The translations under genes were made by a program, and so were the position numbers. DNA of 32,000 nucleotides from Candidatus Saccharimonadota bacterium (GTDB lineage Bacteria; Patescibacteriota; Gracilibacteria; BD1-5; UBA2023). The stretch spans positions 30,001-62,000 of the forward strand of contig JAXLZO010000001.1 of the NCBI GenBank assembly GCA_046350815.1, in the 5' to 3' direction. Of this stretch, positions 2,768 to 26,226 are shown one piece after another (positions within the stretch are counted from its first letter, which is position 1; the number at the start of each line of letters is the position of its first letter). Under the pieces are notes generated by a model. The model saw only the letters and a program-made list of their open reading frames with translations. It searched no databases and was not told where the DNA came from.

Positions 2768-2778
2768 AAAAAGAAAAA

Positions 2779-4008: not shown

Positions 4009-4037
4009 AAAGTAGCAAGAAAGTTACAGATAATACA

Positions 4038-6020: not shown

Positions 6021-6028
6021 GAAGGTGA

Positions 6029-7270: not shown

Positions 7271-7364
7271 AGAGTCAAAGAGTAATATGTCCTTGGAATT
7301 CTACCATATCTTCTTAGTTTACGCAAAATGTCGCCTTGCAAAGGAAGATAATCTGTTTGCAATT

Positions 7365-7394
7365 AAAAAACCCTCTTTTTCAAGAGAGTTTTTT
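7365..7394 (-). terminator. Rho-independent (bidirectional) terminator after the pilin gene
   Basis: AAAAAA-CCCTCTT-TTTC-AAGAGAG-TTTTTT. On the minus strand this gives a 7-bp stem with one G.U pair, followed by a T-run, 19 nt downstream of the pilin stop. Confidence 0.7.
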
Positions 7395-7412
7395 ACAATA
7401 ACAATCGGATGA

Positions 7413-8015
7413 TTAATAAGTTGAATGATGACCAACATCATTATGCACGATTTCACCAGATGCAGAGTTTGCTCGGGCAATAAGTCCCTTTGCACCATTA
7501 CCACCTGTATCAGCAGTAAAATTACCCTTTACATACACTGTTTCAACATCACCATTCATTACTGTAGAAGCAACTTGAAGTGCCGAATTACTAGATGTAC
7601 TAGCATAACCAACAAGAGGAGCACTCTCTGAAGATGTAGCATCACCCATATCCGCCTGAGCAATACCTGGAATTGCTGACCATTGTGGAGCTCCAGCCTT
7701 GATAGTAATAGAAGTAGCGCCGGTATTACCAAATACTGTTTTTCCAGTACCAACTACAATCGTTCGACCAGTAGCTGAACCACTATCAATAAGCGTAGTC
7801 ATGTCAACTGCTGTTGCACCCTTGGTATTCATAGCACTTGAGAGGAGACCCATATTCTCACGAACCTTCGCGGACTTAGCATCCTTTGTATAGTTCTGAT
7901 ATGAGAGGAATCCAACTGTTGCAAGAATTGCAAGAATCGTAATTACCACGATAAGTTCTACGAGAGTAAAACCACCTTTTTGACTCTTGAGAGCCTGCAT
8001 TTGAGAGAGCTTCAT
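7413..8015 (-). CDS. pilA: Type IV major pilin (200 aa)
   Basis: The class III signal [14 protein letters not shown]|[25 protein letters not shown] is the N-methylation motif (G/FTLxE). The rest of the protein is Thr/Ser/Gly/Ala-rich. There is no in-frame TGA. Stop is TAA at 7413-7415. The start is trimmed to the ATG at 8013-8015 rather than the track start at 8105. Confidence 0.85.
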
Positions 8016-8076
8016 ACAATATAATGATAAAAAAATAAAATTGTAGAAGGTTGTAGCATTCGCTGCGTACAGAGGC

Positions 8077-8105
8077 ATTATGGCAGATAATGAAAATTGT
8101 GTCAA
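8077..8105 (-). promoter_or_regulatory. Sigma70-like promoter for the pilin gene
   Basis: On the minus strand: TTGACA (8105-8100), a 17-nt spacer, then CATAAT (8082-8077). It sits about 60 nt upstream of the pilin ATG. Confidence 0.45.
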
Positions 8106-8316
8106 AAAAAACGTTATTCTTTTTGGAAAAAGAGGAATTTATGATTGTTTTGGTAAAAAAATTATGGTTTCTTCCACTCTTGATGAATGGTGGAATCTTA
8201 AGTATTTGCGACCACAGGGAATGATAGAGTTAGTATTCTATGTTCTTCCTTTAATACACCCACACAATTATAATTTAAGCACAATCATATATGCAATGTA
8301 AATACCAAAAGAGGAA

Positions 8317-8490
8317 GATCCTGAAACAAGTTCAGGATGACAGATAATTTGTTGTCATCCTCGCGGAGGCGGGGATCTACCAATTCAGCAAAGTCTGAGA
8401 TATATTTTCGTCCATCCAGAAGATTCACGACTTATCGCATCTATGCGATTTGCTGCATTCCCTATGGTCACCTGTCTGCACGGGAATGAC
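8317..8490. repeat. Intergenic mosaic hairpin-repeat cluster B
   Basis: Modules: GATCCTGAAACAAGTTCAGGATGACA at 8317-8342. The perfect 25-mer GTCATCCTCGCGGAGGCGGGGATCT at 8354-8378. ATCGCATCTATGCGATTTGCTG at 8434-8455. ATTCCC..CGGGAATGACA at 8457-8490. GGATGACA (8335-8342) and TGTCATCC (8353-8360) are reverse complements, so adjacent modules can also pair with each other. Confidence 0.85.
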
Positions 8491-10328: not shown

Positions 10329-11189
10329 ATGACATCACATTCTATTATTCATCGTTCTTCTCTCCCTTCAAAGCCTTCAAAAAGTAGTATTTTGCTCGCT
10401 ACGATATTACTTTGAAGTATCTTACTGACAGGTTGTGGAAAGACAATCAGTCCACAAGACAGCGAAAAACAAGCAACAGAGTCAAACGATCGCCAATTCA
10501 CAAAAAAGGGTGTTCCATATTTTGCCGACGTATGAGTTGCTATCGGTCTTAATGCTTGATACAAAAGCAAAAAAGACAATGACGTAGTAGTTAATCTCGC
10601 GGGCCAGGTCATCCCCATTCAGCAAGCTCTCGAAGAAAAAGATCTCAAACATCGAAAGATCATTGCATCCAATATTAATGAAATAGCGGCCTACCGCGAT
10701 ATACTCAAGATTGATATAAAAGAGAAGCTTGATAGCTCTCCGGATCGCCAAGCTACTCTCAAAGCTCATATGGAGCTCCTCAATAAACACTATAATCTCG
10801 CACAAGACAACCTCAAAGGACTCGATATTTCTCGAAAGGAAATCACAACAGCACTCGGTGAAATTACAACCAGAGTTAATAGTGCTCGAACTCAAGTGGA
10901 CAACTCTTTTGCAAAGCTTGATCCATCTGATGTTGATGAGTATGTCGGTGAGTATATCAGTGCAAAGGAAGACGAACGATATGCTCAGACCTATCTTGTA
11001 CTTACCGACCGATTGAGAGAACGGTATGCAAAACTGCAATCATACAATTCACTCCTCATTCAAACTATAGCGAACAATCGTGAAGCACTCATCGCCTGAG
11101 TAAGTGTAGTAATGCCAGCTCAAGGAAATGATTTTATGGATGATCTCTGACTTATAAAGACAGAAGCACAAAAAAAGACCGGGCAGTAG
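10329..11189 (+). CDS. Hypothetical lipoprotein with a coiled-coil-like body (286 aa)
   Basis: The frame of track ORF 10770..11099(+) extends upstream to ATG 10329 through TGA at 10413, 10533 and 10557, and downstream through TGA 11097 and 11148 to TAG at 11187-11189. The lipobox is SILLATILLGSILLTG|C. It is followed by the terminator at 11199-11232. Confidence 0.65.
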
Positions 11190-11232: not shown

Positions 11233-11295
11233 GAATCAAAATTGATGATGGGTGGAAAAGATATAAACCTCTTATGGTCGAAATAATAAAAATAT

Positions 11296-11476
11296 GTCAT
11301 CCTCGCGGAGGCGGGGATCTACTTCTAATATCATTTTTGAATATACCATCTATTCATGAGATTCCCGTCTATATAGGAATGGCAAGAGAGTAGATATACA
11401 GAATGCAACCGACCTAAGCCCCTTTCTCAGATGGATAAAATCCGAATATGTCATCCTAAACTTAATTCAGCATCTT
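11296..11476. repeat. Intergenic mosaic hairpin-repeat cluster C
   Basis: Modules: the perfect 25-mer GTCATCCTCGCGGAGGCGGGGATCT at 11296-11320. GATTCCCGTCTATATAGGAATGGCA at 11360-11384. A degenerate GTCATCCTAAACTTAATTCAGCATC at 11449-11473. Confidence 0.8.
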
Positions 11477-11519
11477 CCTTTTTCTTATTACATACTATTT
11501 TGACTCATATCAGAGCAAA

Positions 11520-12443: not shown

Positions 12444-13118
12444 TTATCTCTCATCAGAAATTTCCCGTGATCGAAGAGACTGTAATCGCCAAGTAGCAAT
12501 AGAATTGTGATTGCCAGAAAGAAGAACATCAGGCACCCTCATATTACGCCATATTTCTGGACGAGTATAATGAGGATATTCCATCTTCCCATCGAATGAT
12601 TCACTGAAGGATTCTTCCTCATGTGAAGCATCCTTGATTACTCATGGAATGAGGCGAGCTATCGAATCGATAAGTACAAGAGCCGCTGTCTCTCCTCACG
12701 TTAGGATATAATCCCCTATCGAGACACGACGCATATGATAATGATCTATGACACGTTCATCAATCCCCTCATAGTGGCCACAAATAATAATGATGTCTTT
12801 CTTATTCGTTGCAATATTTTGAGCGGAAGATTGAACCCAGCGCTCACCACCGGGAGACATGACAAATATCTCAGGTTTTTCAGGACTCTTATCGAGAATG
12901 TCATCTATTGCGAGTGCAATCGGCTCACACTGAAGAAGGGTGCCATTGCCACCACCATACACACGATCATCGACGCGGCGAGTTGAGCGCACACTATAAT
13001 CAGAGAGTTTGACAAAAACGGGAGTGATACTCCCGTTTTTGACGCTTCGCCCCAATATCGATGTTTCGAGAGCACTTGTGAGCGTCTCTGGAAATAGTCC
13101 AACGATAAAAATCTTCAT
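12444..13118 (-). CDS. trmD: tRNA (guanine37-N1)-methyltransferase (224 aa)
   Basis: Motifs: [11 protein letters not shown].., [33 protein letters not shown][TGA]GE with TGA at 12696-12698 on the conserved Gly of the SPOUT knot motif, and YPHYTRP. Stop is TAA at 12444-12446. Confidence 0.9.
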
Positions 13119-14119
13119 TATTTCGAAACGCTTACCATTTTAATCGAGAACACAAGACTCTTCCCTGCAAGATCTTGCTTGTTCGGTATTCGCAAAACCA
13201 CCTCATCTCCATCTGATCGAACATCTGCAATCTCCACTTCATCACCAATTTTTAAGCCAAAGCGTGCAAAAAGAGCAAGAGATTTTTCATTGAGTTTTTT
13301 CTTCGCACCATTTTTAATTTCATTATCTGCGAAAATTGCAGCATCTGGCATTTTTTCAGATACCATGATAACCGATCCACTCATAGAAATGATTTCATAA
13401 TCAATACCATCCTTTGAGGCTTTTGTGCCGACTGCTATAGGTTTGTCGTAGAATGGAAGCTTGGTCGTATCAAGAACATAGGTTACCTTATCACCGTCAA
13501 TAGCTGTAACCTTCATAAGAAGATTTGGATCGACGGAACTTGGATACACGCTTCCAACCTGGATTTTCGTTGTATCGACTGGCTCTCCAAGCGACTGAGT
13601 AATAGGTTTCTTCTCCGTATAAATCTTACTATCCATAGGACGAACAATATTTCCCTCAAGCATCTCACGAACCATAGGAATTTCAATAAATCCTTCTCCG
13701 TACGCATCCTTCGGAGAGAGTGTAAATTCTCGAGTTTGTCCTGCCTGCATGCCCATCATTGCCTGTGCAAAACCTGGTATAGTACCTTGGCCAACTACTG
13801 CATCAAATGCAAGACGATTCTCTCGTGTACCCTGAAGAGATGTACCACACGTATCATAGAGTGCATACTCTACCTTAACCTGTGAGCCTGTTTTTGAAAC
13901 AGGTCCACTACCAGTACCAGTTGGTGCGCCAAGATCTGTAGGCTTTATTGGACATGATTGTGCAGTTGCTTTGCTTTCTTCTGCTCCAGATTGAGTTGAA
14001 GTATTTTGAGGAGATGATTTTTGGTCGAGAGAAGCATTTTTATTCATTCATGGAAGACTACAACCAGTAACAAAAGCAGAGATGAAAATAAGAGAAATGA
14101 GAGAATGCATGGCTTTCAT
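13118..14119 (-). CDS. FKBP-type peptidyl-prolyl isomerase-like lipoprotein (333 aa)
   Basis: Track ORF 13118..14047(-) extends upstream through TGA 14048-14050 to ATG 14117-14119, giving the lipoprotein signal MKAMHSLISLIFISAFVTG|C. The FKBP-like core is VKVEYALYD...AVVGQGTIPGFAQAMMGMQAGQTREFTLSPKDAYGE. Stop is TAA at 13118-13120, a 1-nt overlap with the trmD start. Confidence 0.65.
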
Positions 14120-15302: not shown

Positions 15303-15549
15303 GTTCCCATCTTGCACGGGAATGACACAAATTTTATGTCATCCTCGCGGAGGCGGGGATCTACAACTATCGACACAGCAAGTTCTTATCATTGAAATGG
15401 GTTGAATCTGATATTTTTTTGATTTGAAAGCTCTATTGAGAATGCAAAAATAGTAGATTCCCGTCTACACGGGAATGACAAATAATTTAAAATCCGCATA
15501 CGTCACTCCACCCCGGCTTCGCCACCCCTCAAAGAGGGGAAGAAATAAA
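15303..15549. repeat. Intergenic mosaic hairpin-repeat cluster D
   Basis: Modules: GTTCCCATCTTGCACGGGAATGACA at 15303-15327. The perfect 25-mer at 15338-15362. GATTCCCGTCTACACGGGAATGACA at 15456-15480 (form ATTCCC-N8-GGGAAT). CCACCCCGGCTTCGCCACCCCTCAAAGAGGGGAAGAAATAAA at 15508-15549, an inverted copy of 145-185. Confidence 0.85.
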
Positions 15550-15550
15550 T

Positions 15551-15584
15551 AAAATCCCTACTCATAAAATAAGTAGGGATTTTA
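15551..15584 (-). terminator. Rho-independent terminator after the giant surface-protein gene
   Basis: AAAATCCCTACT-CATAAAATA-AGTAGGGATTTT is a 9-bp perfect stem with flanking A and T runs, 15 nt downstream of the TAG at 15599-15601. Confidence 0.75.
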
Positions 15585-15598
15585 AGAATCATTAGATA

Positions 15599-18500
15599 CT
15601 ATTGCACCGAAGTAACTTTTGTCAGATTGTACTGCTTGAGGAAGTCACTCACAAGTGGTGGTGGATCTGAGAGTACTCGGGAAGAATAATTCACCAGAAT
15701 TCCTGTCACGATACCACTTGAAGCACTACTACCACGAGCATAGGTACGAGCTGCTATCAGATCTGCAGCATTACCATAGAGACTACCATTGATGATCAGT
15801 TGAGATCATGATGGTTGTCACTTAATATGGTTCGCAATATAAACGCCATCCAACTGTGTCACATTTGTTCAAATTTCAATTTCATCTGCAATAAATGCAA
15901 CCGAATTATTACCAGCTGTTATGTTGCCATTAATGGTCAATTTCCCATTAATCACATAGGTAACCTTTTGAGGGATTATCACTGTATTTAAAGTTACATC
16001 CTTATTTTCAGCACGTACCATAGATGTTCCGGTAGGTAGACCAGAGAATAATCATGGCTGATGAGCTCAGGTAATATTTTTCAAATCAAAATTTGAATTA
16101 GATGTATTCGTATTTTTAGCATTACCAGTATTGAAGTTTGCTGCCTTGAGTTGCTCAAGAAAATCCTTAGCAACTGTATCAATATCAACTGTTTGATTCG
16201 GATTTGCAAAGTATCCGGCACCACCTGCATTGTTTGCAATGATTGGTCGAGTTACACGAATATTGATAGCACCAGGTAAGCGCATATCGTTATCTATATC
16301 ATCACTAGGTTGTTGCAAGGTAACATAAAAATCAAGAAATGGTTTATTTGGGTAATTGACTGTTCGATAAGCTGCATTTTTCAGATTGTTCGTTTGTCCA
16401 TAATCAGCCTTTCAGGCATCATTCCAACGATTTGGATCAGATGGCCAATTAACTATAGGCAATCATTTATGTTGATTCAAACGAGCTGAATTATTTTCAA
16501 AGTCACTGAAATTCATAAGTGGCTCACAAAGTTCCCACGCACTACCATTCCACCGAGAATTAAATTGATTCGGCTGATCTCATGGATTTGCATTTCCTAT
16601 ACAACTTTGATTCAACGTTTGGCTCCATGCATCATTCGTAATGAAATCTCATTGACTCTTGAGAACTATTTTAGATCCAGTAGGTGGAGCAAAGATATAT
16701 CCAGGAGATCGGAGATTGAGTTTATCTTTCTGTCGAAACACTGGAGTATTCTGCCCAATGATCATACTATATGTCCCAGATCAAGTAATATTCTGCCCAT
16801 TAAACAAAGTAAACTCTCTGGATGGACTTTCTGCAGGATTGATAGTAATAGATGGCAAAGTACAGCTCATCGGTTGAGTACTAATATCAAGTCCTATCTT
16901 ACATTCTCCAGGTGTTTTAAATCTATCAACGTAAACACCATTACATACATCGTATGTGCTTGCTGTTATAGTTTGAGATGGTGATCATGGTTTACCACAA
17001 TATCACCACTTGCTTGGATCAGAAGCATAGACAGAAGGATCACACTCTTCTCCAGCATCAAGGCGACCATTTCAACATACTAGTGAAGGATCTCCGCCAG
17101 TCTTACATTGATTAAATGCTCCTGGACGTCCACAGGCACCCCAGTTTACTGCAGATCACATATCACACGTTTCACCAACCTCAAGTGTACCATTTCCACA
17201 ATATGGATTTGATATGGTATTTGTGATCTTACATGTTGTGTCATTCGTATCGAGCGATGATGCGTAGTTTGAATATTCAGCATTATAGTTCCGTCCTACA
17301 GCGATTGGAAAAACTGGATAGTTTGAAACAATACATTTCACATTTTGAGAACCTGGACGATCTGGATTGACTGGAAAGCTCGCGGGATTGCCATGAGAGA
17401 AATCACCAATATAATCAATCACATTGTCACCATCACGATCCACTCAAAATGATCGAGCTTGAGCATTTCCCTGACAAGCAAATGTTGTGTTGTTAATTTT
17501 TGCTACAGACATACATTGAAGCTGGCTTCCTCCTCAACAGATTCCTGTACACCCAGTCTTCAATACCGCACTATTACAATTCGTCGTATCTCCACCAGCA
17601 AGAGTCTTTGCAGCAGATTCATTTGCATTCTCCACACACGCTGTATTTGTCACTGTTGTATTTGCACCAGCAGTTACACGCATAGGGATAAGAATCTCTG
17701 GCAACACATTTATACCAACAGAAGGTTGACCATTGAGATAGCAAGAGAGGATTGATCAACTACTTGCCGAACAATTCCATCCATTCGTCGTGATAGCTGC
17801 TGATGTACGCTCTACTCCAGCAGGGAAAGTATCAGATACAAAAGTTGTACCATTGATAGCAGCCGGGCCATTGTTAGTAACGACAATACGATAATTGAAG
17901 GTAGCTCCGTTTGCGAGATCGATCGCTGTCTCTGCATCATCACTATTGATGTACTTACGAATCGAGAGATCAAATCCATCATTCACTTTGATACAAGCAG
18001 GATCACTCTGTGTGTCAGCTGCACGAGCAGGACATCCAGTATCAGGAGGCAAAGGTGGAATGGTCGTTGTACAAGCAGGATTGTCTATGAGAGATCCACC
18101 ACTGAGAATCTTCTTCGCACAGACATAGGCAATATTCTGATGAAATGATCCCGATGCAGCAGATGCCCGAAGCTTCGCAATGATCGTAAAATTATACGTA
18201 CTACCGGACGCGAGGACATTATCTGTCTGATGCATCACTACTGAGTGAGTATGACCACTGTGTGTGGTAGTTGTCGATCCTGTCGACCATCCAGCTGGAG
18301 CTGATGCAAATCGCACAAATTCCACATATTCTGGAAGTACGTCTTTCACGATCGCACCATTCACCGATCCACTCGAAACCTTGACTTGGTAGAGATAGTT
18401 GAACTCTGTATCACGAGTAACGTTCACCGCACTCGACTCATTCTGAGAGTCACCGGCAGGCATAGTTCCAGCATATTTTTTGATAGAGAGAGTGCCTTGA

Positions 18501-20791
18501 GAGGTTGGAGTAGAGGAGATATGAATAACTGCTGGATCCGTGTTATCTGAAGTATTTATATCACCAGGATTTGATACTGTCGCTGAGTTGGTGATATATC
18601 CGCTTACTGAAGTGCTGGTGACTACAGGAATGTTGATAGTCTGAAATGTTAACCCAGATGCAATATTACCAGTATTGGTACAAGTAAAACTATTGCTAGC
18701 CTGAGAACATGACCATGTTGTGCCAGTCACATTACCCGAGAATGATACTCCTTCCGGAAGTGTATCAGTCACTGTTGTTATACCACTTACACTTGATGGG
18801 CCGTTATTCGTCACAACAACCTTATAGCTGAAAGTAGCAGAATTTGTCTTTTCAATAGCACTACTATTATTTTGAGCATCATTTGCAGGAGCTACGCTAT
18901 CGACATATTTCTTGAGAGAAAGATTGAACGTGTCAGGTATTGTTATTGGTTTACAAGATGTTGCATTACAACCACCAACTCACCAACCAGATTTTGAAGG
19001 ATCGTTTGGATCACACTGCTCACCTTGAATACCAGAAGTAACAAGATCTGTGTCGATATTCGTATCTACGATGCCGTCGCCACACCAAGTGATTTCATAC
19101 TTGGCACATTCTTTATGAACTTGTTGTGAACTTGATCCTATTCGATAATAAATTCCATAGTCAATTTTGAGATTCTCAAAAGAACGAACAGCTGGACGAT
19201 CAATGATATGATATTCTGTCTTTGATTGAATAATCTCTTGATCTACAGTATTGTTAGGGACAACAAAGGATCGATCTCGAATCCAAGGAGTCCATTCAAA
19301 CTCAAACTTTACATTTGATCTATTATAATCAGCCGGCTCTCGAAAAATAGCGGTAAAATTATTGAGAGTAAGATTATTTCACGTTCTATTCGTAAGCTTA
19401 TCTGTAAATCGAAACGTTTGTCCAACTCGGAGTGATCATGTAAATGTCTGGTTACACGCAAGAGAGGTAATGTCTGTTTGACATGTTGCGGTACAATATC
19501 CATCATTACCATTATTAGTACCATTATCACATGACTCATTTCCTTCTTTCTTTCCATCACCACAAACTGGAGTTTTTGTGTAATTTGCAGAACAAGATTG
19601 AGTACCTGATGTATTCTTACATGACCAAGTAAAGTTTTGTGTTAAACCTGAAGTACTACTGCTGAAGGTATCAACATTTCCTACAGAACAAAGATTTGGT
19701 GAATTTGATGAGATAGTTCCATTAAGAGCCCCAACAGAGGTTCAACATTGAGGTGATGGTTGAGTGATATTTGTTAAAGTACAGCTTGTAGTACACATCT
19801 TGCCAGAGGTTACACCATCATTACCATCACATGACTCAAGTCCCTCTTTCTTTCCATCACCACAAACTGGAGTTTTTGTGTAATTTGCAGAACAAGATTG
19901 AGTACCTGATGTATTCTTACATGACCAAGAATAATTTGTCTTCAATCCCTGATCTGTCATGCCAGTAGAGCTACTAAAAGATACTACCGAACCTCATGTA
20001 CAAAGATTTGGTGAATTAGAATTTATAGAATTTATAGAATTTGTAAGTATTCCAGAAGTAGAGCCACAGACAGGTGGTAACTTTGCTGTACAACTTGCAT
20101 TACAGTATCATGGTTGACCATTGTTTATACCATCGTCACAGGATTCTGCTGTCCAAGTCTCACCAGGTCATACTGTTGAATCAGTAACACCATCACCACA
20201 CCAAGTAATAATATATGGTTGACATTCGGTGTGACGAGGGAGATTGACCCAATTATCTGCAGACACTTCTTCTTGTGCCTGTACGAAAAATTTGATAAAA
20301 ATATCAGCCGTTGTATCACGACTAAGTGGATGATCATAAACATTATAATAGCCACCATATTGAGGGCCACGCGAAGGTGCATAGCTCGTTAAAATTGGTA
20401 ACCGTGAATTCCCAGGAATAATCATACTACTATCAACTATCTCCTGAGTTCTAAAAAGAATCTCACCCTTTCAATTACCAGTCCCATCAGAAGTTCCACC
20501 AAATACTGACGAACCACCGCCTGTACCACCACTCTCATTAAAATCCATGAGCTCGGAAATATAGTCGCGACCTAGGTCCGTAATCCTGTGCCTGTTGGAA
20601 GAGTTATTGATATATTCATCTCCAAACTTATAACGCTGATCATAGCGAAGATACAATGGGGAGAATGACTGGTCACAAGAAACTCACTCACCTGGATAGG
20701 CAGGTGCTGCGAGTAATCAGTATGGTGCAAAAGTAACTGCACCTATTCATAGGACCGTTGTAAGGGTGATGAATTTGAAAAAGTTTTTCAT
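15599..20791 (-). CDS. Giant secreted Cys-rich surface protein with CGDG-type repeats and DUF11-like repeats (1730 aa)
   Basis: Track ORFs 20471..20656, 20168..20425, 19742..19960, 17756..18814, 17156..17443 and 16067..16318 (all -) share one frame (top coordinate = 1 mod 3). Manual translation of the gaps found only TGA (about 28 in total) and no TAA or TAG between ATG 20789-20791 and TAG 15599-15601. The signal peptide is MKNFFKFITLTTVL.IGAVTFAP. There are two ITWCGDG..CD..N modules and repeated C.NTSGTQSCSANYTKTPVCGDGKKEG.ESCD modules. Three DUF11-like repeats occur, e.g. ATFSYKVVVTNNGPSSVSGITTVTDTLPEGVSF and ATFNYRIVVTNNGPAAINGTTFVSDTFPAGVE. Further modules are CGNGTLEVGETCD and CGNGRLDAGEECD. 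Confidence 0.8.
19545..19929 (-). repeat. Internal 300-bp-period tandem duplication inside the giant gene
   Basis: 19545-19629 and 19845-19929 are identical at all 85 positions at an offset of exactly 300 nt. Flanking sequence is similar but diverged. Each copy encodes (T/S)WSCKNTSGTQSCSANYTKTPVCGDGKKEG. Confidence 0.9.
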
Positions 20792-20809
20792 AACATCAAA
20801 AGAAAGAAA

Positions 20810-21013
20810 TTATTGAGCCGATACGGTCGTAACATCTACAGTAGTTACTTCCTCAGCTTGTTTGGAAGGAATAGATCTAGGTTCAACAGTGCCACCAGGG
20901 ATGGCTGTGATAGGCGATCATGCCTTATCAGTCTGATTCACCTTTGTTCCACAAGAAACCAGCATGATAGTTGATACAATCAAGACAAAGGTGAATATAG
21001 TAGTATTTTTCAT
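20810..21013 (-). CDS. Small lipoprotein (67 aa)
   Basis: MKNTTIFTFVLIVSTIMLVS|CGTK contains a lipobox. There is one in-frame TGA. Stop is TAA at 20810-20812. The gene sits 17-18 nt from both neighbouring genes. It is absent from the track because TGA splits it below the size cutoff. Confidence 0.55.
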
Positions 21014-21030
21014 ATACATAAATTAATTAT

Positions 21031-24000
21031 TTATAATAACATTGCTGACGATGTTTCTCAAGCTGTATTTGCTAGTGAAGCCTTTGTTTTTTCTTCTGCT
21101 AACTTTCTCGCAACCTCTTCTTTAGCTTGCTTTTCTAGTAATTGTTTAGCAGCCTCTTCTTCCAACAATTTTTTAGCAGCAGCATCTTTAGCTTGTTGCT
21201 CAGCCGTCGCTCAGAGAGCACTACTTACATCAACTCAACCAGTATTAGGAACCGCAGTACCAGATGGGATTTCCACAGCAGGTGTTCATGCTGTACTAGC
21301 TGGAGTAGTTGACACTCATGGTCGTGGCTCAGCAGCTCCGCCTCATTCAATAGTTGGTTTTGTTTCAGACTGAGTTGGTTTTGGCTGTTCTGGTGTTGGA
21401 GGGGTTGCAGGAATACTCTTTTGAATACCCGCACCGCCAGCCATATTCGTTTCTCGACCACCCTGCACACCAGCATCAGCTACCACATATCCATCAACTG
21501 CAGCAATAGTTGGAGTAGAAACCGAAGTAACCGTTCTATTATGCTTGATAAATTCAGGCTTTCCTATGAGAAAACTATCATTTGCACAGACAGAAAATTG
21601 TGCACGTGTGAATTTGAGTGGTTTTGCGAGTTTTACACCATCGATTTCCTCCTTTGCACCAGACAGAAGAGCAATAGCATCTTCTCGTGAAACATCTTTT
21701 CCAGTCGCTTTTTTAAGTGTCTCGAGAATAGCATCACGACGATCTGCAAAAGATTCACGGCTAAATGCAAGACCAAGAAGTGCCGCTTTATTTTCAGGGG
21801 ATAAAGCAGTTGTTTCCATCTGAGAACCCTTGATAACCTTTTCGATAGGAACAGCTATAAGCCCGCGAACTCCAACATTCTTTTGTGCCATACTTATGAT
21901 GGTGAAATAACCATCATTTGGTGAAATCTGCTCAACCGGTTTATCTTTTCATTCAAACTTTAATTTTGACAAACCCTGTTTCCACTGCACGCGATCAGTC
22001 GCTAACTCCGGACTGACAGTATCATTGATATCCCCAAAGAGACGGGCTTCATTATTCTGAAATGCATTTTGCTCATCTTTTTTATTATGATTTGCACGAT
22101 AAATATCCTGAAAATTCTTGCCAGACTTTGATCCAGCGTTTCGCATCTCACTATCGCCCATATTGATCGCAATAAGAGTATCAGCAAGATGGAGTAGTTT
22201 CTTTGGATCGTTTCATGCAGCTGCAAGGTCAGCTGCTAATTCTTTATTTCCTTTTTTTCCTGAAGCAAGTACTTGGAGTGATTTCTGAATAGACACAACA
22301 TCACCCTCCAACCAACCTCGTGTAAATGATCCAAATGCCTCTGTTTGCTCTCTCCGAAGTTCTTTTGCTCTTCATTCAGTAATTTTATACGACTCTGATT
22401 GTTTTTTCATATCACCGACAGCAATTTCTTCAGTCGTTTCACCAGATACTGTAGCACTCGGTGTAACTATTTTCTCACCTTCCTTGATAGAAAAGGTAAG
22501 GGTTTGAGTTCCATTAGGAGCAACACGAGCCTTGAAAGATATCTTGAGTGGAGCATCAGTCACTACCACCTGTTCACCATTTGCCTGAGTTGTAAAATTA
22601 AGTTTATCAGTAACTCAAGTAGTCCTTGCTATATCCCCACTAATAAATCGATATTCATATTTGTTATCAGGAAGCACCTTAGCTCGCACCACTCATCCAG
22701 GAAGTTTTACATATCCGTCTTCATCTTTAGTTGAAGAAAAATCGATAGATACATTACTAATGTCACTCGCGATTTTCTCAGCAAGTCATCTGTTTCCATT
22801 TTTCACTTCTACTCCATATTTATCAAGAACGATTCAGGCATAGACCGTAAGTGGTGACTCACCATGAAGGATTGATTTAAATCCGCCCCATTTCACCAGT
22901 CATTCAACTCACTTTACATTGAAACCCTCTGTGGAAGCAAATTCTATCATTTTGTTTTGTGATAGAAGATTTGCACAAGCTTCTTGAATATCAGCAAATG
23001 CAACGTTTTTTTGTGACAATTGACCAATTATATCACGAATAACCTGTTTTGAAGCAGCATCTGTAATCATACCATCTACAACACTCTGGAGTGATGCAAC
23101 ATCTTTAGTCTCACCGATTTTTTTGCGCATTACCTGAATCTCCTCATTCATCTTATGCTCAGCATCGTTAAAATTAAGACCGGCCCGAGCTCCAGTAACA
23201 TCAATCCCACCGCTTATCGTATATTGTCCCACTCCAACGCTTTTTTCCGCAAGAGCACTGGACTTACCATCACTCGTCAATTCATGTGTGTTGGCACGCA
23301 TATAAACATTGTTAAGTGCGATGGTATGACCAACATCAGGTATAGCTTTTACAACAGCAGCTAATTTTTTCTTAAAACCCTCTGGATTCTTACGATCATT
23401 CTCAGCAATTTTTTTCATTGCGACCGGATCCACCAAAAGTGCCTCAATGTATTTTTGATCGCCACCAGCAAGAACTGTTGCAATATCTACAGAGGTATCA
23501 TGCGAATCGGTAACCAAGTCTTGAACCATTTGAAGTTTTTTGGTAGCTTCCAGAATACCATTTCTGAGTTTCTCAGCACCAGCAGTATCCAGTTGTGTCA
23601 CGTCGAATCTTTCCTGCAGATCAGGAAGAAAGTTTGGATTATATGCTTGAGCATTTTTCATGAGAGTATAGAGCTGTGATTCACCCACAACAAACTTCTG
23701 AGATCCAGACGTAGAGTCAATTCCATAATCAGAATTAAAGACACGGATGAATTTCGTCCCGAGACCTTCTTTACTGCTTGCTTCAATACCAGCTTTATCG
23801 CCGTCAAGATTTGCAACCATCGCGATAAACTTTTGCTCAGGATTCTTAAGTTCTTGGATTTTATCTCATGATAGAGTTTCTCATTGTGCACTTAATGTTA
23901 TGGTTACTACAGAATCTGTTTTTTTTGCAATTTCAGTATTTACCTGGTTGAGATTATCTTTGGTAACCTTCAAGACCTCATTTTGATCTTTTTGCTTCTC

Positions 24001-24120
24001 ATTTGGTTTCAATTTCTTTAATCATTCATTCATTTGATGGTCAAAAGATGTCTCCCATACTTGAGGAGTTTCCGTTTTTTTGATAGGCTCTGGTCGATAT
24101 GGACCAAATTTTTCTGACAT
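21031..24120 (-). CDS. Large hypothetical protein with no N-terminal signal peptide and a Pro/Thr-rich plus Ala/Lys/Glu-rich C-terminus (1029 aa)
   Basis: Track ORFs 22909..23820, 22372..22569, 21949..22161 and 21343..21891 (all -) share a frame (top coordinate = 0 mod 3). They are joined by about 18 in-frame TGA with no TAA or TAG from ATG 24118-24120 to TAA 21031-21033. The N-terminus is MSEKFGPYRPEPIKKTETPQVWE. The tail reads PATPPTPEQPKPTQSETKP, then AEQQAKDAAAKKLLEEEAAKQLLEKQAKEEVARKLAEEK. Confidence 0.7.
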
Positions 24121-24263
24121 ATAAATATTTTTAGAATTTAATACCCCAATACACTACCATATTCCACTCAACTTTGTCGAATAGTTGAGCTTGACAAGAC
24201 TAAGATTTATGAAGAATCACTCCAAAGAGATATCCTGTAACAAAAAAGTCCTTCAAGAGAAAG

Positions 24264-24291
24264 AAAAATCACTCAACTATGAGTGACTTTT
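24264..24291 (-). terminator. Rho-independent terminator after the 220-aa secreted-protein gene
   Basis: AAAAA-TCACTCA-ACTA-TGAGTGA-CTTTT. On the minus strand the 7-bp stem is followed by a T-run, about 35 nt after the TAG at 24323-24325. Confidence 0.6.
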
Positions 24292-24322
24292 AAGAATAAG
24301 TAAAAATAAGAAAGAGAGACTA

Positions 24323-24985
24323 CTAGAAGTTAGCAGCTACAGTGACAATTACCTTATCAGTATAGCTTGTCGCTGGCGTATCTTCAGCAACCTTTGCAGA
24401 TGCAGTAAAAGTAAAGTCATCAATACCAACTGAAGTCTTGGATGGTTTGTTGGTGGTGTAGAGAGTGTAGGCAGTGACCGTACTGTTGATCTCACTACTG
24501 AGATTGGCAGTTTGAGTGAATCCAGGAGCAACACTATCAGATGCACCAGAGAGGGTAGTTGTCCACTTGTAGCTTTCAGCAATACCATCAGCAACGAGTG
24601 TATTGAGGATATCACCAGATGCAGAGAGCATACCTCCATTGAGAGATTTAGCAGTGACTGATGCACCAGCTGATGCATTGGTACCGATTTCCATAGTTAC
24701 TGATCCTGATGTATAGGTAGTAGGATTGAGGTATCCGAGATCAATAGTGTCTGCGGAGATTGCCATATTGAGGATAGGGCGTACTTTTGCTTTTACGATG
24801 ATACCATTGATGGTACCAGAGGCAGAACCTGGAATGGTATCATTCCAGTTGATCGCGGTGGTGAGACCACCGGATCCGGTAACCGTACCGGTACCGATCT
24901 GAGAAGCAAAAGCTGATGATGCACCGAACGCAGCAAATGCTGCTACGGTAGAGAGGGCGATAAATCGCTTGGTATTGGTATTCAT
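24323..24985 (-). CDS. Secreted beta-rich Thr/Ser/Gly/Ala-rich protein, candidate abundant surface or fibre subunit (220 aa)
   Basis: The Sec signal is MNTNTKRFIALSTVAAFAAFGASSAFA|SQ. There is no in-frame TGA despite 20 Gly by hand count. The protein ends YTDKVIVTVAANF. It has its own promoter-like element and terminator. The start is trimmed from the track start at 25120 to the ATG at 24983-24985. Confidence 0.75.
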   Translation of the reverse strand: MNTNTKRFIALSTVAAFAAFGASSAFASQIGTGTVTGSGGLTTAINWNDTIPGSASGTINGIIVKAKVRPILNMAISADTIDLGYLNPTTYTSGSVTMEIGTNASAGASVTAKSLNGGMLSASGDILNTLVADGIAESYKWTTTLSGASDSVAPGFTQTANLSSEINSTVTAYTLYTTNKPSKTSVGIDDFTFTASAKVAEDTPATSYTDKVIVTVAANF

Positions 24986-25092
24986 AACAATAACAATGAA
25001 AGAAGATGTAATATATAACAAAGCAATCATATGTACGATATGCTTGTTCACTCTCCAGACTACCCTATGTTTTTCTCTTACGCAAATAATCG

Positions 25093-25120
25093 AATATACA
25101 AAAAATGAGTTTGTGTTCAA
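25093..25120 (-). promoter_or_regulatory. Sigma70-like promoter for the 220-aa secreted-protein gene
   Basis: On the minus strand: TTGAAC (25120-25115), a 16-nt spacer, then TATATT (25098-25093). It lies about 100 nt upstream of the ATG. Confidence 0.4.
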
Positions 25121-25170
25121 AATAATAAATGATAACCGTCTATCATCCTCACGAAAAAGAAGCCCAAAGA

Positions 25171-25518
25171 GTAAAACGAGTCAGAGATTTGTATTTGAGG
25201 CGAGGAAGATCCTGAATCAAGTTCAGGATGACAAAATACAACTCTCACTGCTCGTAAACTCGTTTTTTCGACTCATTGCATCTATGTAATTCGCTGGACT
25301 ACTGAAGTTTACCCCATCATTGAAGGGTCTATGAGAAAATTTTTTTGTTCCTATCAAACCTCAATCAGTCCAAGAAAGTGTAACAACACAATAGTTCGGA
25401 GAATCAAAGTATGTCATCCTCGCGGAGGCGGGGATCTTGTATTCTTGTATTTGTCTTTATGTCTTTATGTATTTTGTTCCCCCTCATTGAGGGGGTTAGG
25501 GGGAGTTGTATTTTTTTT
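25171..25518. repeat. Intergenic mosaic hairpin-repeat cluster E
   Basis: Modules: GATCCTGAATCAAGTTCAGGATGACA at 25208-25233. AAAATACAACTC..CTCGTAAACTCGTTTTTTC at 25233-25270, homologous to 78-116. ATTGCATCTATGTAATTCGCTG at 25275-25296. The perfect 25-mer at 25413-25437. CCCCCTCATTGAGGGGG at 25479-25495. GGGGGAGTTGTATTTT at 25499-25514. Confidence 0.85.
25233..25514. mobile_element. Possible MITE-like unit bounded by 12-bp inverted repeats
   Basis: AAAATACAACTC (25233-25244) and GAGTTGTATTTT (25503-25514) are perfect inverted repeats enclosing about 280 bp of hairpin modules. A shorter analogous pair occurs in cluster A: 78-94 against the imperfect GGCTGTATTTTT at about 184-195. There is no coding capacity, and no target-site duplication was verified. 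Confidence 0.3.
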
Positions 25519-25527
25519 GAAATATAT

Positions 25528-25554
25528 AAAAAACGCAGGAATCTGCGTTTTTTA
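25528..25554 (-). terminator. Rho-independent bidirectional terminator downstream of the CHAP gene
   Basis: AAAAAACGCAG-GAAT-CTGCGTTTTTT has an 8-bp stem including A/T extension, with flanking A and T runs. Confidence 0.7.
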
Positions 25555-25559
25555 TTTCA

Positions 25560-25632
25560 CTGTCATCAGTCTATCATTAGCCTATCATCAGTCTATAATC
25601 AATTTTTGATCTATCATCAATCTTTAATCTAC
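25560..25632 (+). repeat. Phased 11-bp direct-repeat array (Pho-box-like architecture)
   Basis: Units: CTGTCATcagt (25560-70), CTATCATtagc (25571-81), CTATCATcagt (25582-92), CTATAATcaat (25593-603), a 7-nt spacer, CTATCATcaat (25611-21), CTTTAATctac (25622-32). The last two units overlap the CHAP stop codon at 25624-25626. Confidence 0.85.
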
Positions 25633-26226
25633 ATAGATGTATCACTTGATAGCAGGATGATCTTTGGGGATTTCTCGGATGGTTACGGTGTTGAGTTTTT
25701 GATAGTTCATGTCTTTGATGATGATCTTGGTATCTTTGATTCAGACAACAATTCATACATGTCAGTAGTAGGGATTGTATCCATGTCATTCAAGCTGTAT
25801 GATAGCACCAACAGCTGGGGCTTTACCAGTAGGTACTCATTGAGCTTTGGCATTACGGATCCATTGGTTTGCATTTCATCTCCAGGTTACACTCTTGTTC
25901 TGTGCGACGAAAGCGGTACAGTTTCACCAAGAAAAACGGGGATTATGACCATGATCTTTGATGCGATACGTCTTGTATCATCCCGTAAAAGGATCATCAG
26001 TATCAAGAAGACTTTCTGATTTTTTTGGTATTTCTGAGTGAATACTGGCTCATGTTTGATACACTTCAGCAGGTAGCATAAAAGATGGAGCATCCGTCAC
26101 ATAGTGACCTCATACATTAGCCGGATGGGACTCAATGATCTGGAAGGCAAATACTTGAGAAAAGCTTACCATCACACAGATAAGTGTCGTTGTAACCGTT
26201 GCTATCGATCTCGTATAACTATTCAT
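25624..26226 (-). CDS. Secreted CHAP-domain peptidoglycan amidase/endopeptidase (200 aa)
   Basis: This gene is visible only with TGA=Gly, reading through about 11 in-frame TGA. The signal peptide is MNSYTRSIATVTTLICVMVSFSQVFA. The catalytic region is FSW[TGA]NCTAFVAQNKSVTWR[TGA]NANQWIRNAKAQ[TGA]VPTGKAPAVGAIIQLE...Y[TGA]HV[TGA]IVV[TGA]IKDTKIIIKDMNY, with the Cys...His layout of CHAP. ATG is at 26224-26226 and stop TAA at 25624-25626. Confidence 0.8.

What the first reader, a model, noticed from the sequence alone, without database searches (positions are those of the whole stretch)
15599..24985. Surface-protein gene cluster: abundant secreted subunit, 1029-aa protein without a signal peptide, mini-lipoprotein and a 1730-aa Cys-rich giant
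Four minus-strand genes occupy 9.4 kb. The first (220 aa, 24323-24985) has its own sigma70-like promoter and a terminator. The next three are separated by only 17-18 nt and end at a strong terminator (15551-15584). This composition resembles an adhesion or attack apparatus rather than any described secretion or pilus system. None of the four proteins matched a functionally characterised family by eye. Giant surface proteins are a hallmark of predatory Absconditabacteria. This is the best candidate in the window for an undescribed cell-surface system.
Basis: inference. Interest (0 to 1): 0.75.

Follow-up and report, generated by a model that had tools for sequence, protein, structure and literature searches.

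The report
Pilin gene beside hypervariable surface operon
In a UGA-recoded Gracilibacteria-type bacterium, a highly conserved gene for a pilus-like fibre subunit sits next to a separate three-gene operon (an orphan 1029-aa protein, a tiny lipoprotein and a giant adhesin) whose middle gene is swapped like a cassette between close strains, so the locus probably decides what the cell sticks to.

Summary
In detail: four minus-strand genes under genetic code 25, with the stated lengths, spacers and terminators. The reading as one undescribed four-gene apparatus is only partly supported.

- **The 220-aa gene is its own transcription unit.** It belongs to a ~220-aa family found across Gracilibacteria. 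The family is a remote single-domain relative of the C-terminal domain of the Pam pilins described in 2026. All 40 members tested hit NCBIfam CPR_Pam_pilin_C, and all fall below its cutoff.
- **Its usual partner is absent here.** In about 60 of 80 related loci the family sits beside a membrane-anchored ~490-aa protein, not these neighbours. That partner is not in the window.
- **The 1029-aa / lipoprotein / giant operon is clade-specific.** It occurs in only four close relatives.
- **The giant looks like a fibrillar adhesin.** It has Cys-rich acidic repeats and three DUF11/CLIPPER-like domains.
- **The 1029-aa protein is an orphan.** It has no signal peptide or membrane helix in any allele and matches no known family. 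Between two near-identical strains its first ~920 residues are replaced (16-30% identity) while its tail, the lipoprotein and the giant stay ~97% identical.

Best reading: a conserved pilin gene next to a recombining, host-facing surface locus. The mechanism is inferred.

The parts
25624..26226 (-). Secreted CHAP-domain peptidoglycan hydrolase (200 aa). It is the conserved upstream neighbour of g220 in every context-A locus.
   Evidence: Pfam CHAP, E 9.6e-15, 55.3 bits against a cutoff of 26. It is 75-78% identical in L081, L086, L008 and L089. A hydrophobic N-terminus is present.
25093..25120 (-). Promoter-like hexamers TTGAAC-16 nt-TATATT, about 105 nt upstream of the g220 start.
   Evidence: Consensus scan, 9 of 12 matches. 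Such matches are not enriched over shuffles, so the function is not shown.
24323..24985 (-). g220: a secreted 220-aa single-domain protein of a Gracilibacteria family, remotely related to the Pam pilin C-terminal domain. It is the candidate fibre (pilus) subunit.
   Evidence: family and conservation; AF2 model: confident beta-sandwich at residues 65-220; conserved but unplaced residues 28-60; 32; 41, 55 and 67 (NCBIfam CPR_Pam_pilin_C hits); 53; dN/dS 0.057.
24264..24291 (-). Terminator-like hairpin (12-bp stem followed by a T run) that ends the g220 transcription unit.
   Evidence: the sequence is shown.
21031..24120 (-). g1029: an orphan 1029-aa protein with no signal peptide or membrane helix. 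The body is mixed helical/beta, followed by a Pro/Thr-rich linker and a charged helix at the C-terminus. It belongs to a hyperdivergent, cassette-swapped family.
   Evidence: no TM-like segment; pI 5.9; no family, PDB or PHROG match; 71% orthologue in L081; 29% allele in L086 with sharp boundaries; L089 links it to L008's 1135-aa protein; dN/dS 0.275.
20810..21013 (-). Mini-lipoprotein, 67 aa, lipobox LVS|C at Cys21, one in-frame UGA.
   Evidence: A small lipoprotein sits at the same position in L081, L086, L008 and L089. Pfam Lysis_col scores 21.5 bits, below its cutoff of 27.
15599..20791 (-). Giant 1730-aa secreted modular protein. Layout: signal sequence 1-29; related modules at 37-190 and 444-570; six CG[DN]G..ExCD Cys-rich acidic repeats; three DUF11/CLIPPER-like domains at about 616-760, 766-900 and 934-1060; a Cys-free, Asn-rich C-terminal third. 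The last ~65 residues are invariant across the alleles compared.
   Evidence: TIGR01451 26.3 bits vs cutoff 24; TIGR02232 20.8 vs 20.8; TIGR04226 29.5 vs 30; repeat map, 56 Cys; CLIPPER, weak, on the L008 homologue; homologues; identity profile and invariant C-terminus.
15550..15584 (-). Strong terminator-like hairpin (16-bp stem followed by a T run) that ends the three-gene operon.

Best explanation
Two adjacent but separate surface-protein units lie here.

**Unit 1: g220.** It is the Sec-exported subunit of a Gracilibacteria-type fibre related to the Pam pili of other CPR bacteria. Inferred mechanism: after signal-peptide cleavage, the conserved N-terminal extension (QIGTGTV..INWND..GTINGIIVKAKV) supplies a strand that completes the beta-sandwich of the next subunit (donor-strand exchange). 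In most Gracilibacteria this would be helped by a membrane-anchored ~490-aa beta-domain partner. In this lineage that partner must be encoded elsewhere or is missing.

**Unit 2: g1029 - mini-lipoprotein - giant.** This is one operon found only in this clade. The giant is a secreted fibrillar-adhesin-like protein with variable outer modules and an invariant C-terminal module. g1029 has a variable ~920-residue body and a conserved tail that travels with the lipoprotein and the giant's N-terminus. The inference is that it is presented outside the cell by a route that does not use an N-terminal signal peptide, and that frequent recombination changes its specificity for hosts, prey or phages.

**Shown:** gene structures, family memberships, synteny, recombination boundaries and selection. 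**Inferred:** polymerisation, export of g1029, and the role in host contact.
For: **g220**
- 51 clusters of ~220-aa homologues, with the mature N-terminus and the C-terminal TVTGNF motif conserved.
- The AF2 model has a confident beta-sandwich at residues 65-220. The highly conserved residues 28-60 are left unplaced, as expected for a strand used in trans.
- All 40 family members hit NCBIfam CPR_Pam_pilin_C (best E 1.9e-7). Several hits cover profile positions 3-148 of 148.
- An exhaustive profile search finds 270-760-aa proteins whose C-terminal ~165 residues match. Of 50 tested, 31 hit CPR_Pam_pilin_C at E <= 1e-3 (best 6.9e-12).
- The best Foldseek matches, though weak, are donor-strand fibre subunits: TasA, Csu, PsaA and Fim.
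- dN/dS is 0.057 and dS is only 0.32, against 1.06-1.35 in four of the five flanking genes (fmt 0.67).
- A terminator follows the gene.
- About 60 of 80 loci pair the family with a signal-peptide plus C-terminal-TM partner. This matches the published description of Pam chaperones (paper 10.64898/2026.03.03.709456).

**Operon**
- Spacers of 17-18 nt and one shared terminator.
- The same order in L081, L086, L008 and L089.
- L081 and L086 are 91.6-96.7% identical on both sides, with no nucleotide match across the body of the middle gene. The boundaries fall 8 nt after the start codon and at about residue 923.
- The bodies are 16-30% identical.
- L089 links all the alleles into one family.
- dN/dS of 0.24-0.28 shows these are constrained coding genes.
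- The giant has DUF11 and Cys-rich repeat hits.
Against: - Every Pam hit is far below NCBIfam's cutoff (17-26 bits against 55).
- g220 has one domain, not the two of PamA and PamB.
- Foldseek gives nothing at E <= 1e-3.
- A profile search of PDB sequences finds nothing.
- No chaperone-like partner lies in the window or within 10 kb of either g220 locus of this clade.
- The partner family hits WxLIP_PGBD rather than any Pam chaperone model.
- No polymer has been observed.
- g1029 has no export signal that I can recognise, no known fold (AF2 pLDDT 49.6) and no known domain, so it could be cytoplasmic.
- The giant has no recognisable wall or membrane anchor.
- Nothing ties unit 1 to unit 2 except adjacency within one clade.
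Confidence: 0.55

Rival explanations
1. One reading: all four genes form one dedicated adhesion or attack apparatus. g220 builds the fibre, and the giant and g1029 are mounted on it.
For: The adjacency CHAP - g220 - middle gene - lipoprotein - giant is kept in five genomes of this clade. In L046, from a different Gracilibacteria genome, a g220 homologue is followed by a 2111-aa secreted DUF11-repeat protein. The Pam paper notes a tail-fibre-like protein near pam operons.
Against: - g220 has its own terminator.
- Near-identical g220 copies sit at a second locus without the operon.
- The other Gracilibacteria loci searched lack g1029 and giant homologues within 10 kb of g220, apart from DUF11-repeat hits in L046.
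- The g220/Pam profile detects no acceptor-type domain in the giant, middle protein, lipoprotein or p105.
Confidence: 0.15
2. g220 is not a polymerising pilin. It is a wall-associated secreted protein of a WxL/Csc-like cell-surface complex and is held by the membrane-anchored partner protein.
For: Six of 12 members of the partner family hit Pfam WxLIP_PGBD (best E 1.6e-6). The partner has the signal-peptide plus C-terminal-TM layout of WxL-interacting proteins. Tandem small secreted paralogues beside it resemble csc/WxL clusters (established knowledge of those clusters).
Against: g220 has no Pfam WxL hit and no WxL motif. All 40 family members hit the Pam pilin C model, and the two-domain relatives do so more strongly. 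The conserved N-terminal extension left unplaced by AF2 fits strand donation.
Confidence: 0.15
3. g1029 is an S-layer-like coat protein. Its conserved C-terminal tail anchors or exports it, and its exposed body is exchanged between strains, as in S-layer cassettes.
For: The protein is about 1000 aa, has pI 5.8-6.1 and only 2-3 Cys. It carries a Pro/Thr-rich linker. The body is replaced as a cassette while the tail is conserved. The lack of an N-terminal signal peptide recalls type-I-secreted S-layer proteins such as RsaA (my own knowledge).
Against: No SLH, CWB2 or other anchoring domain was found. No ABC exporter gene lies beside it. It shares an operon with a 1730-aa gene instead of having a strong unit of its own. 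No expression data exist.
Confidence: 0.15
4. g1029 and the mini-lipoprotein form a bacteriocin-like pair: a large toxin without a signal peptide, released by a small lysis lipoprotein as in colicin operons.
For: A large protein without a signal peptide is followed within 17 nt by a 67-aa lipoprotein. That lipoprotein gives a weak Pfam Lysis_col hit (E 2e-4, 21.5 bits). The body is hypervariable.
Against: - The hit is below the cutoff of 27 and covers mainly the signal and lipobox.
- No toxin domain and no immunity gene were found.
- The variable part is N-terminal and the conserved part C-terminal, the opposite of polymorphic toxins.
- The lipoprotein does not co-vary with the body: it is identical in L081 and L086.
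- Colicin release relies on an outer membrane, which CPR bacteria lack.
Confidence: 0.05
5. g1029 is a cytoplasmic protein unrelated to the surface, and its variability reflects weak constraint.
For: It has no signal peptide and no TM segment. The AF2 fragment is mostly helical. No extracellular domain was recognised.
Against: dN/dS is 0.275 over 1004 codons. ORFs of 1029-1140 codons are intact in four genomes. Replacement with sharp boundaries, rather than gradual drift, is what is seen. The gene is tightly packed with a lipoprotein gene and a secreted giant. Pro/Thr-rich linkers are typical of wall-spanning regions (my own knowledge).
Confidence: 0.1

Closest known systems
Pam pili of CPR bacteria (PamA, PamB and PamT of Ca. 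Mycosynbacter amalyticus; bioRxiv 10.64898/2026.03.03.709456; NCBIfam NF058581 and NF058579)
   Same: Both are Sec-exported beta-sandwich subunits found only in CPR bacteria. The g220 domain ends at the protein's C-terminus and aligns to the whole Pam_pilin_C profile in several family members. The segment just before the domain is conserved, as is the donated linker of Pam pilins. Elsewhere in Gracilibacteria the gene neighbours a membrane-anchored beta-domain protein, as PamC and PamD are described.
   Different: g220 has a single domain plus an N-terminal extension of about 35-45 residues, not the NTD-linker-CTD layout. Scores are 17-26 bits against a cutoff of 55. The lineage is Gracilibacteria with code 25, which the paper does not report. 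The window holds no chaperone, PamR-like anchor or ATP synthase genes. The partner family resembles WxLIP_PGBD.
Chaperone-usher pilins (Fim, Pap, Csu) and TasA fibres
   Same: These are the top Foldseek matches of the g220 model (8aur TasA, 7zl4 Csu, 4f8p PsaA, Fim subunits). The logic of an N-terminal extension plus an Ig-like or jelly-roll domain is shared.
   Different: E-values are only 0.007-0.09 and TM-scores 0.3-0.5. There is no sequence match. No usher or outer membrane is present, and no Peptidase_M73/TasA domain.
WxL / Csc cell-surface clusters of Firmicutes (WxL proteins plus WxL-interacting DUF916 proteins)
   Same: In other Gracilibacteria, one to three tandem small secreted proteins lie beside a signal-peptide plus C-terminal-TM protein whose N-terminal domain hits WxLIP_PGBD.
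   Different: g220 has no WxL domain. The partner is not in this window. The hits are weak (E 8e-4 to 1.6e-6).
Fibrillar adhesins with CLIPPER (DUF11) stalk domains and Cys-rich acidic repeats (TIGR02232)
   Same: The giant has a signal peptide, three DUF11-type domains, six CG[DN]G..ExCD repeats and large size. A CLIPPER structure (9ifr) exists in the PDB.
   Different: No LPXTG, TM or other known anchor is present. The C-terminal ~430 residues match nothing. The last ~65 residues are invariant between alleles.
S-layer cassette variation (e.g. the Clostridioides difficile slpA locus). This is an analogy from my own knowledge.
   Same: A large surface-type gene is replaced wholesale between near-identical strains, with sharp boundaries and a conserved anchoring end.
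   Different: g1029 has no signal peptide and no wall-binding domain. That it is an S-layer protein is unproven.

Membership tests
Pam pilus pilins (NCBIfam NF058581 CPR_Pam_pilin_C) | Score at or above the curated cutoff of 55 bits. | tested here: not met
   g220 scores 18.6 bits. Six family members tested individually score 17-26 bits. All 40 members hit the model at E <= 0.1, best 1.9e-7.
Pam pilus pilins | N-terminal Sec signal peptide. | tested here: met
   A hydrophobic segment spans residues 8-27 and an AFA|SQ motif follows. The motif is conserved in the family. No dedicated signal-peptide predictor was available.
Pam pilus pilins | Two domains (a nine-strand NTD and a truncated Ig-like CTD) joined by a donated linker strand. 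| tested here: not met
   g220 has a single beta-sandwich at residues 65-220 and a 35-45-residue extension. Two-domain relatives of 270-360 aa do exist elsewhere.
Pam pilus pilins | Polymerisation by donor-strand exchange. | not testable with these tools
The only indirect sign is that the conserved residues 28-60 are unplaced in the monomer model.
Pam pilus system | An operon with membrane-anchored PapD-like chaperones (PamC/D) and an anchor (PamR). | tested here: not met
   No such gene is in the window or within 10 kb of g220 in this clade. In other Gracilibacteria a signal-peptide plus TM partner is adjacent, but it matches no NCBIfam Pam model.
Chaperone-usher pilins | An incomplete Ig fold with structural similarity to Fim, Pap or Csu subunits. 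| tested here: inconclusive
   Foldseek E-values are 0.014-0.09 and TM-scores 0.3-0.5. There is no sequence match.
WxL-domain surface proteins | A C-terminal WxL domain. | tested here: not met
   No Pfam hit. The family alignment shows no WxL motif.
TasA/camelysin fibres | A Peptidase_M73/TasA domain. | tested here: not met
   No Pfam hit. Only a weak fold match to 8aur (E 0.008, TM-score 0.33).
Fibrillar adhesins (giant) | A signal peptide plus repeated stalk domains. | tested here: met
   TIGR01451 DUF11 repeat scores 26.3 bits against a cutoff of 24. Three mutually similar domains were found (self-comparison E as low as 1e-16). TIGR02232 scores exactly at its cutoff.
Fibrillar adhesins (giant) | A recognised cell anchor (LPXTG, TM helix, lipobox, SLH). 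| tested here: not met
   There is no hydrophobic segment other than the signal sequence. The protein ends in ...LKQYNLTKVTSVQ.
Isopeptide-forming fimbrial domain (TIGR04226), giant residues 785-890 | Score at or above the cutoff of 30 bits. | tested here: inconclusive
   29.5 bits, E 1.1e-6.
Bacterial lipoproteins (67-aa gene) | A signal sequence ending in the lipobox [LVI][ASTVI][GAS]C. | tested here: met
   The sequence reads MKNTTIFTFVLIVSTIMLVS|C. Lipoboxes are also present in L081, L086, L008 and L089.
Colicin-type lysis (bacteriocin release) lipoproteins | Pfam Lysis_col at or above 27 bits, beside a toxin and an immunity gene. | tested here: not met
   21.5 bits. No toxin domain or immunity gene was found.
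S-layer proteins (g1029) | A known anchoring or lattice domain (SLH, CWB2, etc.). | tested here: not met
   No allele hits Pfam or NCBIfam.

The most novel reading that the evidence does not exclude
The 1029-aa protein family is a new kind of surface-exposed specificity protein of code-25 CPR bacteria. It is made without a signal peptide. It is exported or mounted through its conserved Pro/Thr-rich tail together with the mini-lipoprotein and the invariant C-terminal module of the giant adhesin. Its ~920-residue body is exchanged between co-existing strains as a cassette to change host or prey range, or to escape phages.
Probability: 0.25. Interest if true: 0.8.

Novelty: new variant of a known kind. 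Interest (0 to 1): 0.6.

Why it matters
**Extending Pam pili.** Pam pili were described only in 2026, and mainly in Saccharimonadia and Microgenomatia. A single-domain relative spread through Gracilibacteria, with a different membrane-anchored partner, would extend that fibre type to the UGA-recoded lineages. It also gives a simple subunit for structural work.

**A candidate host-specificity locus.** How epibiotic or predatory CPR bacteria choose hosts is an open question. This locus shows a sharp replacement of one large gene between strains that are otherwise about 92-97% identical across the rest of the locus. That is a concrete candidate for a specificity determinant, and it can be tested by read mapping, proteomics and cryo-ET in wastewater enrichments.

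**An export puzzle.** The middle protein has no signal peptide in any allele. If it is extracellular, it also poses a question about protein export in bacteria without an outer membrane.

Tried and rejected
- **Homology searches.** The word-indexed search found nothing for g1029. For the giant's last 544 residues it found one fragment.
- The exhaustive search and the structure tool refuse code-25 translations. Only UGA-free stretches could be used.
- **AF2 on g1029.** Residues 86-403, run as a single sequence, gave pLDDT 49.6. I did not run a fold search on it.
- **Library scans.** PHROGs, PDB sequence searches and Pfam on four alleles of the middle protein gave nothing.
- **PDB profile searches.** The g220 family profile found nothing. 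The partner-family profile gave only spurious helix and TM matches.
- **BFVD fold search.** Nothing at E <= 1e-3 for g220.
- **g1029 against L008's 1135-aa protein.** Direct comparison, including hhalign, was not significant. The link comes only through L089.
- **Exact look-up.** The window's g220 sequence is not on record.
- **Rfam.** No hit in the window.
- **Giant as tip adhesin.** I tested whether the giant carries a Pam-like acceptor domain. It does not.
- **Lipoprotein as immunity protein.** Rejected, because the lipoprotein is identical in L081 and L086 although the bodies differ.
- **Promoter scan.** Not above chance.


Full report
**1. Observation**

The window is UGA-recoded. With UGA read as sense, ORFs lengthen several-fold.

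The four minus-strand genes are real.
- g220 lies at 24323-24985.
- g1029 lies at 21031-24120.
- A 67-aa lipoprotein gene lies at 20810-21013, with lipobox LVS|C.
- The 1730-aa giant lies at 15599-20791.

The giant has 28 in-frame UGA codons and no TAA or TAG. The chance probability of such a run is about e^-81. The spacers are 17 and 18 nt. Hairpin terminators follow g220 (24291-24264) and the giant (15584-15550). Promoter-like hexamers lie upstream of g220, but such matches are at chance level in this region. Against the orthologous locus L081 all four genes show purifying selection, with dN/dS of 0.057, 0.275, 0.155 and 0.239.

**2. The 220-aa protein**

It has no Pfam or PDB sequence match. 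NCBIfam gave weak hits to CPR_Pam_pilin_C and PamT. These models derive from a 2026 preprint that describes donor-strand-exchange pili in the CPR bacterium Ca. Mycosynbacter amalyticus. That system has two-domain pilins PamA and PamB, a single-domain tip protein PamT, and membrane-anchored PapD-like chaperones PamC and PamD.

g220 belongs to a tight family of ~220-aa proteins from Gracilibacteria-labelled MAGs, with 51 clusters found. The mature N-terminus (QIGTGTVxGSG..INWNDTF..SASGTINGIVVTARVLPTLNMTIS) and the C-terminal TVTGNF motif are the most conserved parts.

AlphaFold2 with this alignment gives a confident beta-sandwich for residues 65-220 (pLDDT 85-95). It leaves the conserved residues 28-60 unplaced. 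Foldseek finds no strong match. Its best PDB hits are a CLIPPER domain, the TasA fibre, Csu and Fim pilins and PsaA, at E 0.007-0.09. The viral library gives nothing.

Three results support remote homology to the Pam pilin C-terminal domain.
- All 40 family members hit that model (best E 1.9e-7).
- In several members the hit spans profile positions 3-148 of 148 and runs to the C-terminus.
- An exhaustive profile search of 1.84 billion representatives finds 146 relatives. Many are 270-760-aa proteins that match only in their last ~165 residues. Of 50 of those, 31 hit the Pam model at E <= 1e-3 (best 6.9e-12; one reaches 43 bits).

All scores stay below the curated cutoff of 55 bits, and g220 has one domain rather than two. 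I therefore file it as a new single-domain variant, not as a member. The Pam paper does not mention Gracilibacteria.

**3. Context of the g220 family**

A scan of species-representative genomes found 71 loci, all in Gracilibacteria, Peribacteria or Patescibacteria MAGs. In about 60 of 80 loci held, one to three tandem g220 paralogues are immediately followed by a ~430-550-aa protein. That protein has a signal peptide, beta domains, a C-terminal membrane helix and a charged Lys/Pro-rich tail. Six of 12 of these partners hit Pfam WxLIP_PGBD, and none hits a Pam chaperone model.

The partner is absent from the window. About 15 loci carry solitary g220 copies in unrelated contexts.

**4. The operon and its relatives**

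No g1029 homologue lies near g220 in any of the 71 genome loci, and the only giant-related matches there are DUF11-repeat hits in L046. Four close relatives do share the window's arrangement: CHAP hydrolase - g220 - (a 104-105-aa secreted protein in three of them) - large middle gene - mini-lipoprotein - giant - holA-like gene.
- L081, ENA ERZ724509.
- L086, JGI 3300056789.
- L008, JGI 3300056999.
- L089, the NCBI MAG GCA_020632315.1.

The same MAG, and the contigs L085, L087 and L088 from other metagenome samples (L087 is from wastewater), carry g220 copies more than 90% identical at a second locus. There the copy is a tandem pair in L085 and lies next to an M48 peptidase gene, with no operon.

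g220 is 95-98% identical across all these loci. The neighbours vary widely.

**5. Cassette behaviour of the middle gene**

L081 and L086 are 94.8% identical upstream and 91.6% identical through g220. They then show no nucleotide match from 8 nt after the middle gene's start codon to about codon 923. From there they are 96.7% identical through the gene's tail, the lipoprotein gene and the giant. The protein bodies are 16-30% identical, with small conserved islands.

The window's g1029 is 71% identical to the L081 protein, in a mosaic pattern of 36-100% per 50 residues. L008's 1135-aa protein shows no direct similarity to g1029. The L089 protein links them, because it matches two alleles.
- The N-terminus of the L086 protein, at E 4e-7.
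- L008's protein over 500 residues, at E 2e-21.

All alleles share these features.
- No signal peptide.
- No convincing membrane segment. L008's allele has one hydrophobic stretch at residues 763-782.
- pI of 5.8-6.1 and 2-3 Cys in the four alleles for which these were computed.
- A motif F.[YR]A[EQ]...C[TA]N near the end of the body.
- A Pro/Thr/Ser-rich tail.

No allele matches Pfam, NCBIfam, PHROGs or PDB.

The lipoprotein does not co-vary with the body, which argues against an immunity role.

**6. The giant**

It is modular.
- A signal sequence.
- Two related N-terminal modules.
- Six Cys-rich acidic repeats.
- Three DUF11/CLIPPER-like domains. NCBIfam TIGR01451 scores above its cutoff.
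- A borderline isopeptide-domain hit.
- A Cys-free C-terminal third that has no relatives except fragments from the same clade.

Identity between alleles ranges from 7% to 100% along the protein. The last ~65 residues are invariant in the window, L081, L008 and L089. No known anchor is present.

**7. Interpretation**

The evidence fits two units. Unit 1 is a conserved and probably highly expressed fibre subunit of the Pam superfamily. Its low dS of 0.32 and dN/dS of 0.057 fit that. Unit 2 is a clade-specific, recombining surface operon.

That g220 polymerises by donor-strand exchange is an inference from homology and from the conserved, unplaced N-terminal segment. That g1029 is exposed is an inference from its cassette-like replacement, its Pro/Thr-rich tail and its operon partners. 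The rivals are one integrated apparatus, a WxL-like complex, an S-layer protein, a bacteriocin with a release lipoprotein, and a cytoplasmic protein. They are set out with their tests in the rival section.

**8. Novelty and verdict**

g220 is a new variant of a kind described in 2026. The giant is a new member of the fibrillar-adhesin kind. The middle-gene family is undescribed, and its cassette exchange is the most interesting feature. The 'single undescribed system' reading is only partly supported.

Noticed in passing
window 1682-8138 (minus strand): A type IV pilus gene set lies here: PilT-like ATPase (1682-2767), PilC/T2SSF (2779-4008), a SpoIIE-type phosphatase (4038-6020), PilB-like ATPase (6029-7270) and a prepilin-like ORF with a GFTLVE motif (7413-8138). 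Housekeeping genes separate it from the cluster.
   Followed up: partly
window 25410-25437, 15335-15364, 11293-11322, 8353-8380; and 25202-25233, 8311-8342, 52-89, 11449-11479: There are two families of short palindromic intergenic repeats. Copies of type 2 (TGTCATCCTCGCGGAGGCGGGGATCT) are 100% identical over 28-30 nt. Two of them, in the same orientation, bracket the four-gene cluster. The repeats also occur in L081 and L008. They may be REP-like elements or recombination sites.
   Followed up: partly
loci L001-L007, L010-L080 (e.g. L001:10781-12244): A conserved ~430-550-aa partner of the g220 family. It has a signal peptide, an N-terminal domain with weak WxLIP_PGBD and fn3_5 hits, a GGHYGA motif, a C-terminal TM helix and a charged Lys/Pro-rich tail. 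A few members also carry a zinc ribbon. It is absent from the window.
   Followed up: partly
L008:2546-3112: In this close relative, two small antisense ORFs are inserted between g220 and the middle gene. One gives a weak CopG-antitoxin hit. The other looks BrnT-like by eye. Together they suggest a toxin-antitoxin pair.
   Followed up: no
L081:6562-6879, L086:10782-11096, L089 ~10820-11080: An extra 104-105-aa secreted protein (MKK..VPVANVKLD..) is encoded between g220 and the middle gene in three relatives. The window has none, only a 202-nt spacer.
   Followed up: partly
L082, L085, L087, L088 (second g220 locus): g220 copies more than 90% identical, as a tandem pair in L085, lie next to an M48 peptidase gene in a different genomic context. 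The MAG GCA_020632315.1 carries both locus types. This suggests gene conversion or very strong constraint on the subunit.
   Followed up: partly
window 24986-25623: The 638-nt non-coding stretch between the CHAP gene and g220 is unusually long for a small genome. It is 88% identical to L081 and contains a hairpin plus T run just after the CHAP stop (about 25527-25553) and several repeat hairpins. No Rfam family matches.
   Followed up: partly
window 15599-15793 (giant residues ~1666-1730): The last ~65 residues of the giant are invariant in four alleles whose other regions differ by up to 90%. This may be an assembly, anchoring or processing module.
   Followed up: partly
window 13118-14119 (minus strand): A lipoprotein with an FKBP-type peptidyl-prolyl isomerase domain (lipobox VTGC) lies downstream of the cluster. 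It may be a folding helper for exported proteins. It is conserved next to the holA-like gene in L081.
   Followed up: no
contigs carrying close g220 homologues (P0001, P0002 clusters): Many contigs carrying near-identical g220 genes are only 1-4 kb long. This fits assemblies breaking in the variable neighbouring region.
   Followed up: no
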